From the IMG/VR virus record IMGVR_UViG_3300018479_000131: a stretch of 6,405 nt of DNA; one strand, written 5' to 3'. Source of the DNA: a virus. Lineage: Duplodnaviria > Heunggongvirae > Uroviricota > Caudoviricetes. Shown in pieces: positions 1 through 6,405 of this stretch. A program made the position numbers and the translations under genes. The notes under the pieces were generated by a model. The model was given only the letters and a program-made list of their open reading frames with translations, ran no database searches and was not told the DNA's origin. Position 1 is the first letter of the stretch. Every line of letters begins with the position of its first letter.

Positions 1-20
1 ACACGACGCTCTTCCGATCT
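1..20. other. Illumina adapter remnant (non-biological), probably marking a read or contig end
   Basis: Bases 1-20 read ACACGACGCTCTTCCGATCT, which is the 3' end of the Illumina TruSeq universal adapter / read-1 primer site as I know it. Phage-like sequence begins immediately after. Confidence 0.85.
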
Positions 21-87
21 GAGCAGGATCATTACCGGCAAAAATACGTACTTCCGCACGCTGTTCAGTGATTGTTTTCGTTACCAT
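21..87 (-). CDS. Head decoration protein (lambda gpD-like), N-terminal fragment only; the rest runs off the window and into the adapter
   Basis: Reverse complement of 87..21 translates as MVTKTITEQRAEVRIFAGNDPA. An AGGAGG Shine-Dalgarno lies upstream on the minus strand (revcomp of about 93-104), though the spacing of about 12 nt is long. It sits directly downstream of the gpC-like stop, where lambda has D, and the NDPA motif resembles the N-terminus of lambda gpD as recalled. Only 22 codons are visible. Confidence 0.5.
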
Positions 88-123
88 ATTGTAAAAACCT
101 CCTGTTGATAGTCAGCACTGACT

Positions 124-726
124 TCATGGCATGGCCATGAGCATTTTCACGTCCGCATCACCGTCTGCTGACGTCTGTGGCACGCCACCCTGTACCGCTG
201 CCGGTGAATGGTTCGCCATGAAATGTTCAAACATGGCGGTTGTGGATGCAGAGACCGGTTCTGCCTTACCTGCTCCCGCCGCCAGCACAGCCCGGGCGCT
301 CTCCACAGTCATTCCCGGGCAGGCAGCCAGCTGTTCAGCCTGCGCCTCAGCCCCTTTTGCCTCATCCAGTGCTATGATCTGATCACGGAGTGATGGTCCG
401 GCATCCGCCTGCGGTGAAGCAGCCAGGATCGGGCGGGCTTTTTCCACCGTCATCTCCGGCATCGCCGCCAGCGTTGCCGCCAGTTGTTCACGACCGTTCG
501 CTTCTTCACACGCCATAATGCGATCGGCTTCACTCTGCGTGGATGCCACCGGCTGCTGCGGTGCCGCCGCGGCCAGAATCGCCCGGGCCTGTTCAACGCT
601 CATACCCTGTTGTCCTGCCAGCATCGTGGCAAGCTGTTCACGTCCTTTCGCTTCCTGGCATGTCAGGATCCCCATCACTCGCTGGTTCTCCTGCGCGGCG
701 GCTTCCGTTGCAGTTAATTGCGGCAT
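124..726 (-). CDS. Candidate nested in-frame scaffold protein (Nu3-like) from internal initiation within the gpC gene; the start codon is uncertain
   Basis: The in-frame ATG at 726..724 (Met302 of the gpC-like ORF) is preceded on the minus strand by GAGGAGG about 6 nt upstream (revcomp of 727-740 is TCAGAGGAGGCACT). In lambda, Nu3 is made by in-frame internal initiation inside C. Met231 (939..937) and Met241 (909..907) lie nearer the position of the lambda Nu3 start by alignment but have weaker ribosome-binding sites. Confidence 0.3.
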   Translation of the reverse strand: MPQLTATEAAAQENQRVMGILTCQEAKGREQLATMLAGQQGMSVEQARAILAAAAPQQPVASTQSEADRIMACEEANGREQLAATLAAMPEMTVEKARPILAASPQADAGPSLRDQIIALDEAKGAEAQAEQLAACPGMTVESARAVLAAGAGKAEPVSASTTAMFEHFMANHSPAAVQGGVPQTSADGDADVKMLMAMP

Positions 727-1629
727 AGTGCCTCCTCTGACATTACTGTTCAGCGCCGTGGCCATCACACTGATGGCATCCGACGCATTGATTAATTCAT
801 CCGCCAGCCCGGCCTCAATGCCGGACTGACCTTCAAAAACGGCAGCCTCTGTTCCCGTGACGGCATCAACAGACAGACCGGTATACATCGCCACTTTTTC
901 GGCAAACATCCGGCGCGCCGCATCAATCCGCTGCTGCATGTCCTGGCGAACCTCTGCCGGCAACGCTTCAAACTGATTGCCATCCACCTTGTGCGCCCCT
1001 GAGTAAATCAGCGTGATATCCACACCGGCCTGCGCCAGATGACCGGCATAGCTGACATGGCTCATCATCACGCCAATGGAGCCGATACGGGATGTCTGGG
1101 TAACCAGCCGTCGGGAGCAGGCCGACGCCAGCAGCATGGCTGCAGAACAGGCCGTGTCATTGCACAGTGCCCAGACCGGCTTCTGCTGACGGAGGCGGTA
1201 AATCATGTCAGCGCAGTCAAACGCGCCGGCGGCCTGCCCGCCCGGACTGTCAATGTCCAGCAGTACGCCCCGCACCTGGCTATCCGCCATTGCCTGCTGA
1301 AGACAGGCGACAATGCCGTCATATCCTGTCATTCCGGAAAATGGCCGCATACCACCCAGCCGGTGCACCAGCGTGCCGGTCACCGGCAGTACAGCAATAC
1401 CGTTCACCACCCGGTAAACACGGGCCGGTCGTTTACCTCCGGCCATATACTCGTCCGTTTCAGCCAGCATTCCGGGAGCATCAAGCTGTACCTGTTGTTG
1501 TGGTACCGAAAGACTTGCTGCCCCCATCTCGCGCCCGAGCGCGCAAAAGAAAACCCGCGCATAGGCGGGCTCCAGAAGCAGCGGTTCATTGAATGCTGCG
1601 GCAATAATGTGTGAAAGATTACGTCTCAC
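124..1629 (-). CDS. C: Prohead protease / capsid assembly protein (lambda gpC-like, S49/ClpP-like serine peptidase) with a C-terminal scaffold (Nu3-like) domain
   Basis: 501-aa ORF from the track. The N-terminal ~300 aa align by eye with lambda gpC (e.g. AFNEPLLLEPAYARVFFCAL, NGIAVLPVTGTLV, GMTGYDGI, PGGQAAGAFDCAD, KPVWALCNDTACSAA, SRRLVTQT, GSIGVMM, ITLIYSGAHKVDGN, YTGLSVDAV). A Cys-Ser-Ala motif sits where lambda gpC has its catalytic serine. The C-terminal part is a repeated scaffold-type motif. Confidence 0.93.
   Translation of the reverse strand: MRRNLSHIIAAAFNEPLLLEPAYARVFFCALGREMGAASLSVPQQQVQLDAPGMLAETDEYMAGGKRPARVYRVVNGIAVLPVTGTLVHRLGGMRPFSGMTGYDGIVACLQQAMADSQVRGVLLDIDSPGGQAAGAFDCADMIYRLRQQKPVWALCNDTACSAAMLLASACSRRLVTQTSRIGSIGVMMSHVSYAGHLAQAGVDITLIYSGAHKVDGNQFEALPAEVRQDMQQRIDAARRMFAEKVAMYTGLSVDAVTGTEAAVFEGQSGIEAGLADELINASDAISVMATALNSNVRGGTMPQLTATEAAAQENQRVMGILTCQEAKGREQLATMLAGQQGMSVEQARAILAAAAPQQPVASTQSEADRIMACEEANGREQLAATLAAMPEMTVEKARPILAASPQADAGPSLRDQIIALDEAKGAEAQAEQLAACPGMTVESARAVLAAGAGKAEPVSASTTAMFEHFMANHSPAAVQGGVPQTSADGDADVKMLMAMP
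250..680. repeat. Three tandem, diverged coding repeats (periods about 141 and 150 bp) encoding a triplicated ~47-50 aa scaffold-domain motif within the gpC/Nu3-like gene
   Basis: DNA anchors recur at 281-312 (GCCAGCACAGCCCGGGCG...CAGTCAT), 422-453 (GCCAGGATCGGGCGGGC...CCGTCAT) and 572-603 (GCCAGAATCGCCCGGGC...CGCTCAT). Matching protein repeats are ILTCQEAKGREQLATMLAGQQGMSVEQARAILAAA, IMACEEANGREQLAATLAAMPEMTVEKARPILAAS and IIALDEAKGAEAQAEQLAACPGMTVESARAVLAAG. Confidence 0.85.
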
Positions 1630-3211
1630 GTGGTGTTGTCTCCTCTTCCGGCCTGCGACTCTCCGCTATCTGCTGCTGATACGCCTGCGCTATCCACACC
1701 GGACGTGAGAGTCCGGCTTTTTCCCGCTCTGCAGATTCCCTGACCTGCTGGCGGAAAATGTCCTGATAATCCTCGCCCATCAGCGCCAGCTCTTTCTCAT
1801 ACGTGCTCAGTCCGGCCTCAATGCGCATCACTGATTCCTGGACTTCCTTGAGCCCGTCAATGGCCATTCTTCCGGCACCAATCCACTCTGCCCGTGACCA
1901 GGCTGATCGCGCCTGATAAAAATCAAAACGTGCCCGTGGCGGACGAATAATCCCCCGAAGAAGTGCCTCTTCCAGCCAGCAGGAAAACATCTGCGTGGCC
2001 AGCCGGGCCGCAATAAATTTTCGCCGCCCCATAAAATAGCGCCACGACTCATTGGCGGAGGCGCGGGCACTTGAGTAACTGACCTTCGAGTAGTCACGGG
2101 ACAACTGTTCGTAGGAAACGCCAAGACCGGCGGCGATATACCGCAGCAGCGCCTGTTCAAGCGCAGAAAATCCATTGTCTGAATCCTGCGCGGTCTGCAG
2201 TTTCAGATCATCCCCGGGGAAAAGGTGCGGAATTTTGACACCGCCCAGCGTCACGTGATTCGTGTCATACCAGTTGGAGAACTTCTCCAGAATATTAATA
2301 AGCGGATTATCCTTCTGCCCCTGCGGCGCACCGGCGATATATTCAAAGGCCTTTTCGGTATCAAGTTCACTTTCGATTGTGGCTGCATACATGGCCTTCA
2401 CAATGGCCGACTGAAGCTGTGTTACCTGCAGGGAATCGAGCATCTTCAGCCGCTCCATGACGCTGTAAAACTGATTAGCCCCACGGGTCTGCCCGTCCTC
2501 CACCGGCTCGAAAATATGCAGCATGGCCGGACGCCCGGTGGGAAGTTCACGCGGGATCCGTTCCCATCCTCCACTACCAGAGAACGGAAAATCATCCTCA
2601 CAGATGTGGTACGCAACGGCACGGCCATATCGATCGACCTCCACACCGGCCCGCAGAAAACGGTTCCCCATACCGTGTCCTGGCGTGTCCACCCGTTTCG
2701 GACTCACGGCTTTAAAACGCGTACGGAATAACTGCGTGGTTTCCGTATCCCAGACCGGCTGCACAAATATTTCGCCGTTAAACGCATGAACGCCCACACC
2801 TTCACGGATAAATTCCGTGAAGGTGCGTTTTCCTTCCACGTCGATCTCGCCAAACATCCCTTCGGCGTATTCCGACCAGGCCGCCTCCACCTCATCGACA
2901 AAGCTTTTTGCTGCAGTCTCCCGCATCCCCAGCCAGCGCCAGTTCGGACGGTAGCTGATCAGAAACATATGCCCGACAATGTGATCTTTATGCAGGGCCA
3001 CCGCATTAGCCGCTATTCCGTTATTGCGCACCAGATCATCTGCCCGGGCATTCCCCAGACGCAACGCGGGCAGCAGGGCCGCATCGGCACTCTGCGCCGG
3101 TGGCAACCACTCCGCCATTTGCCCGCCAAATCCTGCGCCGCCCCCGTTGTAGCTGAGACTCTCACGAAGCGGAACGCCGTTCACATCAATCAGGACAGGC
3201 GTTAGTTTCAT
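1619..3211 (-). CDS. B: Portal protein (lambda gpB-like)
   Basis: 530-aa ORF. Motifs shared with lambda gpB as recalled include GGGAGFGGQ, DAALLP, GNARADDLVRNNG, HAFNGEIFVQ, WDT, LFRTRFKAVSPKR, EPVEDGQTRGAN, FYSVME, KMLDSLQ, TQLQSAIVKAMYAATIESELDT, LLRYIAAGLGVSYEQLSRDY, YSSARASANESW, FMGRRKF, WSRAEWIGAGRMAIDGLKEVQE and IEAGLSTYEKE. Its start overlaps the gpW stop by 4 nt (ATGA), and its 3' end overlaps the gpC start by 11 nt. Confidence 0.95.
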   Translation of the reverse strand: MKLTPVLIDVNGVPLRESLSYNGGGAGFGGQMAEWLPPAQSADAALLPALRLGNARADDLVRNNGIAANAVALHKDHIVGHMFLISYRPNWRWLGMRETAAKSFVDEVEAAWSEYAEGMFGEIDVEGKRTFTEFIREGVGVHAFNGEIFVQPVWDTETTQLFRTRFKAVSPKRVDTPGHGMGNRFLRAGVEVDRYGRAVAYHICEDDFPFSGSGGWERIPRELPTGRPAMLHIFEPVEDGQTRGANQFYSVMERLKMLDSLQVTQLQSAIVKAMYAATIESELDTEKAFEYIAGAPQGQKDNPLINILEKFSNWYDTNHVTLGGVKIPHLFPGDDLKLQTAQDSDNGFSALEQALLRYIAAGLGVSYEQLSRDYSKVSYSSARASANESWRYFMGRRKFIAARLATQMFSCWLEEALLRGIIRPPRARFDFYQARSAWSRAEWIGAGRMAIDGLKEVQESVMRIEAGLSTYEKELALMGEDYQDIFRQQVRESAEREKAGLSRPVWIAQAYQQQIAESRRPEEETTPRET

Positions 3212-3414
3212 AACCTCACTCCCAGCGGACGACGGCGACGTCGGGTTGTCCCCAGTACCGACTCCGCATCATTGATCGCCCGGTTAAGCTCATCCAGAGA
3301 AGCCGCCGTATATTCAATTCTGCGACCATCTTTCTGGACAGACACCACCCGTTTACCGGTTAATAAATCAAGGCGCGCCTGACGCAGCGCCTGCAGTTCA
3401 GCGACTGTAACCAT
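3208..3414 (-). CDS. W: Head-tail joining / head completion protein (lambda gpW-like)
   Basis: 68 aa, the same length as lambda gpW. Its sequence [51 protein letters not shown]...RRRRP parallels lambda W (TGKRVATVQKDGRRVEFTA...RRRGP) as recalled. A GGAGGA Shine-Dalgarno lies upstream, and the gene sits between the terminase large subunit and portal genes. Confidence 0.9.
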   Translation of the reverse strand: MVTVAELQALRQARLDLLTGKRVVSVQKDGRRIEYTAASLDELNRAINDAESVLGTTRRRRRPLGVRL

Positions 3415-5326
3415 TCACTCCTCCGGACAGCTTCGCTGCCAGTTCTTTAAGGGTTGGCCGGGTCGTCTCTTCTTCCCGGGATTTTGCCAGTACAGCCAGA
3501 TCAAGCTGCCAGCGCTGCACGGACACACGTAATGCCGCGTAGGCATACACCAGGCAGTCCAGCGCTTCGTTACGCCGCTTTTTGTTATCCCACAGCAGAC
3601 GCATCTTTCCTTTTTCCCACTTCTCCACAAGCTCTTCCGCAACCAGTTGCTGCGCCTCTGTCTGCGAAAAAATCTCCGGATCATCAGGAAAACGGATGGC
3701 ATACGACGTGGCTTCATCCGCAGGCGTGGGATCGGCTTTCATACGGGCATAGAGAATCTCTTTTGCGGTGTCCGTCCCCACTTCACACAGATACACGCCC
3801 CGCTGATTGCGGGTTTTTGGCATGGTGATCACCGGCTTGCCATAGACAGATGCGCCTTTTACCGGCAGCACCCGGAAAACACCGTGTTTTTTTGACCTCT
3901 GATAAACGATTTCGCCATCGATCCCCCCGATGTCCCAGCAGACACGGGAAATGGTCATTTCGGTTCCGTCTGCATGACGGTATTTTTTGTTGATCGCCGC
4001 ATCCACACGTAACAGCGTCTCTTCCTCATCGGGACGCCCCATAATGATGATTTTATCCACCAGAAAGGCTTCCTCTCCCGGAGCCCATCCCCAGACATAC
4101 ATCTCAAAACGGTTTCGCTGCGAGTCAATGCCCGCCGTCAGATAAACCACCCGGGCAGGCACTGCCGCCGTGTAACGCACAACCTTATCCATCAGTACCT
4201 GGTGATCGAGTTTTTCGCCCACGGCCTCTTCCCAGGTCTCGCCCAGCGTGGTGTTCACAAAGGTTTTCAGGCCGTTGGGATCTTTCAGTGCATCCAGCCA
4301 GTCATAGACAATCTGTACCCAGGTGGTGAACGGACTGTACGCCGTCCAGATATGGAACGTGATGGAGCGCGGCGGCGGAATTTCATTACCCGCAGCGCTG
4401 AAAAACATCAGACCGTCACGGGTCCACATGCCCGTGTTTTCACAAATCCACCGCCCGTTGCTCTGGTCCAGTTCAGACTGATGGATCACGCAGCCATGAT
4501 GTTCACAGAGGTAGAAAACACTTTCGGGACTGTCCTTCTCCCATTTAAGCCCAAAAGGCGTGGACTCATCGCCAAATTTCAGATACTGCTCCTCCCCACA
4601 GTGCGGGCAGGGCACATAAAAACGCATGAAATGCGCCGACTCGTTGGCCGCTTTTTCGATCTGGCAGGAGCCTTTTATTTTAGGCGTCGAGCCGCGAATG
4701 GATTTTGGCCATACAGAGCCCTCAATACGCTTATCCCCCAGCAGGGTTGGCGAGCCCTCTTTTTCAACATCCGGCTCGAACGAGGAAAGTTCGTCATAGC
4801 AGACCACATCCACGGATTTTTCACGGTAGTTTTTGGCGGCAGCACCACCCAGGCACCAAAAACCCACACGGGAAGTGAATCTTTTTAATGTCAGCGTGTT
4901 ATCCCGGTGCTTACGTCCCAGCCAGGGGGAAAGAATTTTCAGACAGGGAACATCCCGTAATGTTGACTCCACATGAGACTTCATAAAATCTTCAGCGGCA
5001 GAATCCGTAGGCTGAAACAGAAGACTGTTACGGTTTTTATGCTCAATAAAGTAACCAATAACGCCCATCAGCATTTTGGTGTAACCGACTCGAGCTGATT
5101 TTATAAGATTAATCGTGCGGATCCGGTCATTACCCATGCAGTTCATTATTGCCACCTGAAATGGCAACGTCTTCCACCGCCCAGCAAGATAAGAGGACTC
5201 CGGGGGCAAATAATAATTTTGATCGGCCCATTCAACGGTGGTTACAGGCAGTGGGCGTAAAAGCCCACGAAGTGCCACTCCACAAACAACAGCAAAGTTA
5301 TTTAGCTGCTTCTCTGAGGTATTCAT
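3398..5326 (-). CDS. A: Terminase large subunit (lambda gpA-like)
   Basis: 642 aa against 641 in lambda gpA. Long colinear matches by eye include [192 protein letters not shown] and [13 protein letters not shown]. Confidence 0.96.
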
Positions 5327-5846
5327 CCAGCATCTCCGGTAACTTCTCTGCCGTTGATGCGCATCGGTTTGCCGCCTTTGCTATATCGGTTTTCAGGAAA
5401 TCAAGCATAGCGGGCGTCAGTGCCGAAAACTGTCTCTGCATGGACAATGGAATGGAGTCAAGAATGGCAGAGATCTCCTGTGCCAGTCTTCCCAGAGCAA
5501 AAAGGCAAAACCCTGTATCAATGACCTGCCCACTGTCGCGGGCATTTTTCAGTTCCTGTGCATCTGCCTGTGCCTTCGTCAGTCGGTAACGTTCGTAATC
5601 AATGGTGCCGGGCTGAAGGTCTGATTCGCTGGCAGCCCTCAAATCCTCGACCTCTTTACGGAGTTTTTCGTTTTCAATATCAGCTTCGCGCTGCGCATAC
5701 CACTGAATGGCAGCAGTTGTATCAAAAACTGATTCAGTCCCTTTCCCTCCACCAGAAACTAGTGGTAACCCCTGACTCTGCCAGGCGGTGATGGTCCTGA
5801 CATCAACGCCAAAAATATCGGCCAGTTTTTTCTTATTGACGTTCAT
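5298..5846 (-). CDS. nu1: Terminase small subunit (lambda Nu1-like)
   Basis: 182 aa against 181 in lambda Nu1. It has an N-terminal helix-turn-helix-like segment ([24 protein letters not shown]) and a GGGKGTES motif (nt 5730-5753, minus strand), and is colinear with lambda Nu1 as recalled ([52 protein letters not shown]). It overlaps the gpA-like start by 29 nt and lies immediately downstream of cos. Confidence 0.95.
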
Positions 5847-5865
5847 ACACTCATCCGGAAACCAG

Positions 5866-5918
5866 AAAGGATCTGAAAATGGCGTTTTCGGACAAAAACA
5901 GCCTTTGTCAGATCCTTT
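5866..5918. promoter_or_regulatory. Perfect 11-bp inverted repeat with a 31-bp spacer inside cosB; candidate paired binding sites (R-site-like) for the small terminase subunit
   Basis: AAAGGATCTGA at 5866-5876 and TCAGATCCTTT at 5908-5918 are exact reverse complements. The element lies 20-70 bp upstream of the Nu1 start, where lambda carries the inverted R2/R1-type elements. Confidence 0.55.
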
Positions 5919-5941
5919 TATATTTTTAATATTCTATTGAT

Positions 5942-5954
5942 AATCAATCAGTTA
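5942..5954. promoter_or_regulatory. IHF binding-site consensus match (candidate I1-like site of cosB)
   Basis: AATCAATCAGTTA matches the IHF consensus WATCAANNNNTTR exactly. It is embedded in an AT-rich tract between the R3-like element and the inverted repeat, as the IHF site I1 is in lambda cosB. Confidence 0.5.
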
Positions 5955-6015
5955 AAAAGAAGAAGAACGGATCTACTTTTTCCCGAAAAATTTTCATAAA
6001 TAGTGAAAACGCGCG

Positions 6016-6027
6016 AGGTCGCCGCCC
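6016..6027. other. cosN: the 12-bp lambda-type cohesive-end sequence (terminase nicking site)
   Basis: 6016-6027 reads AGGTCGCCGCCC, the exact reverse complement of the lambda cohesive end GGGCGGCGACCT, and is flanked on both sides by near-lambda-identical sequence. Confidence 0.9.
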
Positions 6028-6058
6028 CGTAACCTGTCGGATCGCCGGAAAGGACCCG
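6028..6058. promoter_or_regulatory. cosQ-containing segment (right-end side of cos)
   Basis: CGTAACCTGTCGGATCGCCGGAAAGGACCCG is the reverse complement of the last ~31 bp of the lambda genome right end (…CGGGTCCTTTCCGGTGATCCGACAGGTTACG as recalled), with a single mismatch. Confidence 0.8.
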
Positions 6059-6062
6059 AAAA

Positions 6063-6079
6063 ATGATAATAATTATCAT
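6063..6079. promoter_or_regulatory. AT-rich palindrome ATGATAAT-A-ATTATCAT; candidate operator in the intergenic region upstream of the plus-strand small gene
   Basis: 8-bp arms are exact reverse complements around a single central base. A related palindrome ATAAT-CA-ATTAT lies at 6122-6133, and GCATC-containing direct repeats lie at 6077-6083 and 6097-6103. Confidence 0.35.
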
Positions 6080-6226
6080 CTACATATCACAACGTGCATC
6101 TACGCCATCAAACCACGTCAAATAATCAATTATGACGCAGGTATCGTATTAATTGATCTGCATCAACTTAACGTAAAAACAACTTCAGACAATACAAATC
6201 AGCAACACTGAATACGGGGCAACCTC

Positions 6227-6405
6227 ATGTCAACTAAGAACAGAACCCGCAGAACAACAACCCGCAACATCCGCTTTCCTAACCAAATGATTGAACAAAT
6301 TAACATCGCTCTTGAGCAAAAAGGGTCTGGGAATTTCTCAGCCTGGGTCATTGAAGCCTGCCGTCGGAGACTAACGTCAGAAAAGAGAGCATATACATCA
6401 ATCCA
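6227..6405 (+). CDS. Small basic protein, 3'-truncated at the window end; resembles the DUF3950 YlcI/YnfO family of lambdoid prophages; possible ribbon-helix-helix DNA-binding fold
   Basis: ATG at 6227 opens a frame with no stop to the window end, translating as MSTKNRTRRTTTRNIRFPNQMIEQINIALEQKGSGNFSAWVIEACRRRLTSEKRAYTSI. The six-frame track omits it because it has no stop. The pattern is basic N-terminus, short beta-like strand (NIRFP), helix, Gly turn, helix. In E. coli K-12 prophages, ylcI and ynfO lie next to Nu1 homologues (noh genes) as I recall. The ribosome-binding site is weak (GGGG about 8 nt upstream). Confidence 0.55.
   Translation, partial: MSTKNRTRRTTTRNIRFPNQMIEQINIALEQKGSGNFSAWVIEACRRRLTSEKRAYTSI

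What the first reader, a model, noticed from the sequence alone, without database searches (positions are those of the whole stretch)
1..20. Sequencing adapter fused to phage sequence at the window start
The first 20 bases are the terminal 20 nt of the Illumina TruSeq universal adapter, not biology. This implies the source contig starts at an untrimmed read end. The gpD-like gene is artificially truncated, and any ORF call extending into 1-20 is invalid. Contig breaks at this position in lambdoid prophages often reflect repeats shared between co-resident prophages.
Basis: partly seen in the sequence, partly recalled or inferred. Interest (0 to 1): 0.4.

Follow-up and report, generated by a model that had tools for sequence, protein, structure and literature searches.

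The report
Leftover sequencing adapter at contig end
The first 20 bases of the window are leftover Illumina library adapter stuck onto the end of an ordinary E. coli prophage contig, so this is an assembly artefact to trim and not a biological feature.

Summary
Window 1-20 (ACACGACGCTCTTCCGATCT) is exactly the last 20 nt of the published TruSeq Universal adapter. The chance of this 20-mer at a fixed position is about 2e-12.

All listed E. coli and phage matches, and all 14 aligned native loci, begin matching at base 20. Native DNA reads GCTGCTGCCTGTGGCGGTAT at 1-20. The T at position 20 is shared by chance.

From base 21 to 6405 the window is identical to an E. coli draft contig (GCA_012909405.2), except for base 25. 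That base is A in the window. It is C in all 12 loci read there, and no complete genome gives a perfect match. This looks like a read error 5 nt from the junction.

The minus-strand head-decoration gene (phage 21 SHP / lambda gpD family) keeps 22 native codons. Seven adapter-coded codons follow and are false.

In IMG/VR, 122 of 124 occurrences of the 20-mer sit at a contig end pointing inward, as it does here.

The right end (6405) coincides to the base with the ends of six independent draft contigs. So the window is probably a whole contig, broken on the right at a prophage repeat. The repeat explanation for the left break is plausible but untested.

Nothing here is novel.

The parts
1..20 (+). 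Residue of an Illumina TruSeq-type adapter: the 3'-terminal 20 nt of the P5 / Read-1-primer arm. Read on the minus strand it is AGATCGGAAGAGCGTCGTGT, the start of the Read-2 read-through string.
   Evidence: Exact 20/20 match to adapter positions 39-58. The adapter string is printed in PMC12345228, and its reverse complement is listed as 'adapter 2' in PMC7303419. No native relative matches bases 1-19.
20..21 (.). Adapter/insert junction. T20 is common to the adapter and the native sequence, so the native fragment begins at 20 or 21. It begins at 21 if the adapter's 3' T is intact.
   Evidence: Alignment to native loci. All listed BLAST alignments that reach the left end start at query base 20.
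25..25 (.). Single-base discrepancy: A in the window, C in all natives read. It is probably a read error carried in with the adapter-bearing read. On the minus strand it is a silent CCG>CCT change.
   Evidence: It is the only difference from L012 across window 21-6405. All 12 native loci read there have C. The best of 1,759 complete-genome records is 41/42 over window 21-62.
21..87 (-). 5' end of the head decoration gene (phage 21 SHP / lambda gpD family, Pfam HDPD). It is cut off by the contig end and keeps 22 native codons, MVTKTITEQRAEVRIFAGNDPA.
   Evidence: Translation of the window against the full 115-aa WP_000256840.1. Homologues carry Pfam PF02924.
6227..6405 (+). YlcI/YnfO (DUF3950) family gene, cut 16 nt before its stop codon by the right end of the window. 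This is the other contig end.
   Evidence: The exact 59-aa partial product is recorded at NCBI as 'partial' on 34 contigs. Six independent draft contigs end at the identical base, and two more end 2 nt earlier. L012 and L003 continue natively past this point.

Best explanation
Bases 1-20 are synthetic library-adapter DNA left on the end of an assembled contig. They are not part of the prophage.

Most likely history. An Illumina ligation-type (TruSeq-style) library contained a fragment whose end lay at window base 21. That fragment was shorter than the read length. Its Read 2, running on the window's minus strand, therefore read out of the insert into the P5-side adapter (...CCTGCTC|AGATCGGAAGAGCGTCGTGT). 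The read was not adapter-trimmed, or the residue was too short to be caught. The assembler used it to extend the contig end, bringing in 20 nt of adapter and probably a substitution error at base 25.

What is shown: the identity of the 20-mer; the loss of homology exactly at its boundary; the end-of-contig geometry; the unique base at 25; and the truncation of the head-decoration gene.

What is inferred: that the source read was a Read-2 read-through; that support at the tip is one or a few reads; and that the window start is the true contig start.

The rest of the window is an ordinary phage-21-like lambdoid prophage packaging and head module of E. coli. On the minus strand it runs Nu1, terminase A, W, portal, C protease/scaffold and the start of the decoration gene. 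cosN lies at 6016-6027.
For: - Exact 20/20 identity to the 3' end of the TruSeq Universal adapter. Chance probability is about 1.7e-12, and 0 of 200 shuffles matched.
- All listed matches from 1,873 E. coli records start at base 20, as do the 10 listed phage matches and all 14 aligned loci. Native DNA differs at 12 of the 20 positions.
- Window 21-6405 equals L012 except at base 25. I calculate the chance that the only mismatch in 6,385 bases falls within 5 nt of the junction at about 8e-4. No complete genome gives a perfect match across window 21-62, and all 12 loci read at base 25 have C.
- The reverse complement of the 20-mer is the start of the string used as 'adapter 2', the Read-2 trimming sequence (778 papers hold it).
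- In IMG/VR contigs, 122 of 124 occurrences lie at a contig end with the same inward orientation, and 100 of 124 lie within 38 nt of the end.
- The right end of the window matches recurrent contig ends to the base, which indicates that the window is a complete contig.
Against: - There are no reads, assembly graph or source record. The junction 40-mer was not found in the viral, genome or metagenome contig collections, and the chimeric 29-aa product is not in the protein collection. So it is not shown directly that the window start is a contig start, or how many reads support it.
- Only 20 nt of adapter are visible, so the exact kit cannot be named.
- Base 25 could in principle be a private silent SNP rather than an error.
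Confidence: 0.96

Rival explanations
1. Internal adapter-mediated chimera. The window is a slice of a longer contig. The adapter continues to the left of base 1 and joins the prophage fragment to unrelated DNA.
For: Nothing left of base 1 can be seen. 33 of the 124 IMG/VR occurrences have non-adapter bases between the adapter and the contig end, and 3 of 124 lie more than 200 nt from it.
Against: The window's other end coincides to the base with the ends of six independent draft contigs, and the length (6405) is not a round cut, so the window looks like a whole contig. 121 of the 124 IMG/VR occurrences are within 200 nt of an end.
Confidence: 0.03
2. The artefact is the same, but it arose from a chimeric library molecule or adapter concatemer that placed adapter inside a read, not from Read-2 read-through of a short insert.
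For: The assembled sequence alone cannot separate the two routes. Both give adapter 3' end followed by insert.
Against: From general knowledge of Illumina libraries, read-through is by far the commoner source of adapter in reads. The minus-strand reading matches the Read-2 read-through string exactly from its first base. A probable low-quality-tail error lies 5 nt before the junction.
Confidence: 0.08
3. The adapter marks a genuine physical DNA end: a phage genome terminus, a packaging cut or an in vivo break at base 21.
For: Adapters do ligate to natural ends. One related prophage (L006) carries a D-E deletion whose junction lies about 25 nt to the left.
Against: The cohesive-end site of this phage type (AGGTCGCCGCCC, the complement of what I recall as lambda's GGGCGGCGACCT) is at 6016-6027, about 6 kb away. 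Base 21 lies inside a conserved coding sequence that is continuous in the 12 fetched native loci read across it and annotated as a full-length decoration gene in the two checked. Sheared fragments end at arbitrary positions.
Confidence: 0.01
4. The 20-mer is native sequence that resembles the adapter by chance, or a real insertion in this strain.
For: None.
Against: P is about 1.7e-12. Native relatives, including one identical at every other base but one, carry a different 20 nt there. The replacement destroys the decoration-protein reading frame's sense.
Confidence: 0.001

Closest known systems
Terminal adapter contamination of draft assemblies (Illumina TruSeq-type adapter, Read-1-primer arm)
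   Same: The sequence is exact. It sits at the sequence end with its 3' end pointing inward, as in 122 of 124 IMG/VR cases. Homology to native DNA breaks at its boundary.
   Different: Nothing material. Only 20 of the 58 nt are present. From memory, that is short enough to fall below strict vector/adapter screening thresholds.
Phage 21 head module (genes 1, 2, 3, portal, protease/scaffold, SHP), as found in lambdoid E. coli prophages
   Same: 96% nucleotide identity to phage 21 (OL657228.1, M81255.1) over window 20-5242, with the same gene order. The first 22 residues of the decoration protein are identical to the 115-aa WP_000256840.1.
   Different: The small-terminase and cosB segment (about 5243-5976) has no megablast match to phage 21 and is a different allele. 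The decoration gene is cut off by the contig end.
Repeat-induced contig breaks between co-resident lambdoid prophages
   Same: The right end matches this pattern. Six independent contigs end at the same base. Two of them come from one assembly, are 98.5% identical to each other, and share an identical final 77 nt.
   Different: For the left end, which is the finding itself, no recurrent break was shown. L003 and L012 assemble through it.

Membership tests
Illumina TruSeq-type ligation adapter residue | Exact identity to the 3' terminus of the published adapter sequence | tested here: met
   20/20 match to positions 39-58 of the 58-mer. The string is confirmed in PMC12345228.
Illumina TruSeq-type ligation adapter residue | Lies at a sequence end with the adapter's 3' end facing the insert | tested here: met
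   It occupies window 1-20 on the + strand. 122 of 124 IMG/VR occurrences have the same geometry. That the window start is the contig start is inferred from the right end being a contig end.
Illumina TruSeq-type ligation adapter residue | Similarity to native relatives stops exactly at the adapter boundary | tested here: met
   All listed alignments that reach the left end start at query base 20. Native DNA is 8/20 identical across 1-20.
Illumina TruSeq-type ligation adapter residue | Specifically the 'TruSeq Universal' oligo, rather than another adapter sharing the same arm | tested here: inconclusive
   The 20 nt also match the 33-nt Read-1 sequencing primer string at its positions 14-33. 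From memory, several kits share that arm. Nextera is excluded, with only 8-9 nt chance matches.
Illumina TruSeq-type ligation adapter residue | Supported only by read-through or untrimmed reads in the raw data | not testable with these tools
   No reads are available, and the source record was not found.
Lambdoid head decoration protein (gpD/SHP, Pfam PF02924) | Sequence identity to family members and position directly downstream of the C protease/scaffold gene | tested here: met
   The 22 N-terminal residues are identical to WP_000256840.1. Synteny is as.
Lambdoid head decoration protein (gpD/SHP, Pfam PF02924) | Complete domain encoded | tested here: not met
   Only 22 of 115 codons are native. 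The next 7 are adapter-coded.
Repeat-induced contig break (co-resident prophages) | The same break point recurs in independent assemblies | tested here: inconclusive
   The right end (6405) meets this. For the left end (21) there is no evidence of recurrence, and L003 and L012 run through it.
Repeat-induced contig break (co-resident prophages) | A second copy of the flanking sequence in the source genome | not testable with these tools
   The source genome is unknown. In general, 1,868 complete genomes hold 2,916 copies of window 1-400, up to 5 per genome.

The most novel reading that the evidence does not exclude
The adapter marks a real, recurrent physical DNA end or rearrangement hotspot early in the decoration gene. 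One hint is the D-E deletion in L006, whose junction lies about 25 nt away. On this reading it would not be an arbitrary shearing end.
Probability: 0.01. Interest if true: 0.15.

Novelty: not a real feature. Interest (0 to 1): 0.04.

Why it matters
The value here is data hygiene only.

- Bases 1-20 should be masked or trimmed.
- Base 25 should not be scored as a SNP.
- The 29-codon minus-strand ORF should be treated as a 22-codon fragment of a 115-aa decoration protein.
- Any feature call touching either window end should be read as a contig-end truncation.

The case also shows that short (about 20 nt) adapter residues survive in public contigs. In a scan they can be recognised by their end position and inward orientation.

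Tried and rejected
- I tried to locate the source contig. The exact 40-nt junction gave 0 hits in viral contigs, genome contigs and metagenome contigs. The exact 29-aa chimeric product is not in the 15-billion-protein collection.
- A look-up of the C protein returned only long contigs: 300 blocks hold it, and only the longest were read.
- Adapter at the other end is rejected. The window is native to its last base.
- Nextera, P5 and P7 sequences are rejected, with only 8-9 nt chance matches.
- Rfam found no RNA family, and Tandem Repeats Finder found no DNA tandem repeats.
- A natural phage terminus is rejected, because cosN lies at 6016-6027.
- I could not test whether the left break is repeat-driven. 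That needs the source assembly graph.

Full report
**Observation**

The window begins ACACGACGCTCTTCCGATCT. Exact comparison shows this to be positions 39-58, the 3'-terminal 20 nt, of the 58-nt TruSeq Universal adapter. It is equally positions 14-33 of the 33-nt Read-1 sequencing-primer string.

Every adapter match outside 1-20 is only 8-9 nt, which is chance-sized; this includes Nextera and P7. The only longer ones (12-13 nt) lie inside 1-20 itself. The 20-mer occurs once in the window, and no match with up to 3 mismatches appeared in 200 shuffles. From base composition its probability is 1.7e-12 at a fixed position and 2.2e-8 anywhere in the window.

**Where native sequence starts**

- A search of window 1-400 against 5,426 complete E. 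coli genomes found 1,873 records, and every listed alignment starts at query base 20.
- For the whole window, 12 of the 15 listed E. coli matches start at base 20 and three start at 78. All 10 listed phage matches start at base 20, as do all 14 loci aligned locally.
- Native DNA at the equivalent of 1-20 is GCTGCTGCCTGTGGCGGTAT, which is 8/20 identical to the window.
- T20 is common to both, so BLAST starts at 20. The junction is therefore 19/20 or 20/21.

**The rest of the window**

Window 21-6405 is identical to an E. coli draft contig (L012, GCA_012909405.2 AATMOO020000027.1) at every base but one. It differs from L003 at two bases.

The single difference from L012 is base 25, which is A in the window. 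All 12 native loci read there have C. The best of 1,759 complete-genome records (2,686 places) reaches only 41/42 over window 21-62. By my arithmetic, a lone discrepancy falling 5 nt from the adapter junction has a chance of about 5/6385. It is best read as a sequencing error carried in by the same adapter-bearing read, though a private silent SNP cannot be excluded.

**Gene content**

All genes named here lie on the minus strand:

| Window coordinates | Gene |
|---|---|
| 5298-5846 | Small terminase Nu1 |
| 3398-5326 | Large terminase |
| 3208-3414 | W |
| 1619-3211 | Portal |
| 124-1629 | S49 protease/scaffold |
| from 87 downward | Head decoration gene (start only) |

These assignments rest, RefSeq annotation and Pfam marks. 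The block is 96% identical to phage 21 over 20-5242.

The decoration ORF reads MVTKTITEQRAEVRIFAGNDPA followed by QIGRASC. The native 115-aa protein continues HTATGSS.... So 22 codons are real and 7 are adapter-coded.

**Mechanism**

On the minus strand the end reads ...CCTGCTC|AGATCGGAAGAGCGTCGTGT. The latter string is the start of AGATCGGAAGAGCGTCGTGTAGGGAAAGAGTGT. That sequence is listed as 'adapter 2' in PMC7303419 and appears in 778 papers.

From established knowledge of Illumina paired-end chemistry, this is what Read 2 shows when the insert is shorter than the read. The most likely history is therefore a short fragment ending at base 21, an untrimmed Read-2 read-through, and an assembler that extended the contig end with it. 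This step is inferred and was not observed.

**Independent context**

- 122 of them lie at an end with the adapter's 3' end pointing into the contig.
- 100 lie within 38 nt of the end.
- In 91, every base out to the end is adapter.

The window shows the same geometry.

**Is the window a whole contig?**

The right end cuts a YlcI/YnfO (DUF3950) gene 16 nt before its stop. The exact 59-aa partial product is on record at NCBI as 'partial' on 34 contigs. Six independent draft contigs (L134, L135, L136, L139, L141, L142) end at the identical base, and two more end 2 nt earlier.

Two of these contigs belong to one assembly (GCA_015190505.1). They are 98.5% identical to each other over 6,756 nt and share an identical final 77 nt. 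That is the signature of a break on entering a repeat shared by co-resident prophages.

So the right end is a recurrent contig end and the window is most likely an entire contig. This supports reading base 1 as a contig start.

Copies of this module are common: 2,916 places in 1,868 genomes for window 1-400, and up to 12 places per genome for the whole window. In 89 of the 300 collection blocks holding the exact C protein, its longest contig is only 5-10 kb.

For the left end itself, however, I found no recurrent break. The near-identical prophages in L003 and L012 were assembled through it. The remark is plausible but unproven here.

**Rivals**

- Natural phage terminus: excluded, because cosN (AGGTCGCCGCCC) lies at 6016-6027.
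- Chance or native origin: excluded by the probability and by the native relatives.
- Internal chimera: cannot be excluded without the source record, but the right-end evidence makes it unlikely.

**Verdict**

This is a real observation, correctly interpreted, of a well-known artefact. It has no biological novelty.

Noticed in passing
window 25: This is the only base in 21-6405 that differs from the near-identical contig L012 (A versus C). All 12 native loci read there have C, and no complete genome gives a perfect match over window 21-62. It lies 5 nt from the adapter junction, so it is probably a read error and not a SNP.
   Followed up: yes
window 6227-6405 (right end): The window ends 16 nt before the stop of a YlcI/YnfO (DUF3950) gene. 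Six independent E. coli draft contigs end at exactly the same base and two more end 2 nt earlier. The 59-aa partial product is on 34 contigs at NCBI. This is a recurrent assembly break point.
   Followed up: yes
L134 and L136 (both GCA_015190505.1): Two co-resident prophage contigs in one assembly are 98.5% identical over 6,756 nt. Both stop at the same base as the window's right end, and their last 77 nt are identical. This illustrates a repeat-entry break.
   Followed up: partly
window 6016-6027: AGGTCGCCGCCC is the reverse complement of what I recall as the lambda 12-nt cohesive end GGGCGGCGACCT. So cosN of the prophage lies inside the window, upstream of Nu1.
   Followed up: partly
window about 5243-5976: There is a mosaic boundary. 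Phage 21 and several prophages match 20-5242 at about 96% but have no megablast match across the small-terminase and cosB segment. They resume at about 5977 with only 84% identity. The Nu1/cosB module is therefore a different allele from phage 21's.
   Followed up: no
window about 78-87; hits H22-H24: In three complete genomes similarity to the window starts at base 78 instead of 20. This suggests a different decoration-gene allele downstream of the same C gene, with a mosaic joint at the start of the decoration gene.
   Followed up: no
L006 about 11610-11802 (GCA_014469715.1): This prophage has the identical C protein but lacks the decoration and major capsid genes. Its sequence departs from the other natives about 25 nt to the left of the window's adapter junction, sharing only 'atccc' beyond that point. 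The closeness to the window's break is probably coincidental.
   Followed up: no
window about 250-655, minus strand (C protein residues 326-461): There are three protein-level repeats of about 40-50 aa (xxEAKGREQLAxxLAxxxGMSVExARxILAA) in the C-terminal, scaffold-like part of the S49 protease/scaffold protein. No DNA-level tandem repeat was detected.
   Followed up: partly
L133 and L140, equivalent of window 6404: A C-to-T change creates a TAA stop, so the 59-aa YlcI/YnfO product is complete in those records instead of the 64-aa form. This variable site lies 1 nt from the recurrent contig end.
   Followed up: no
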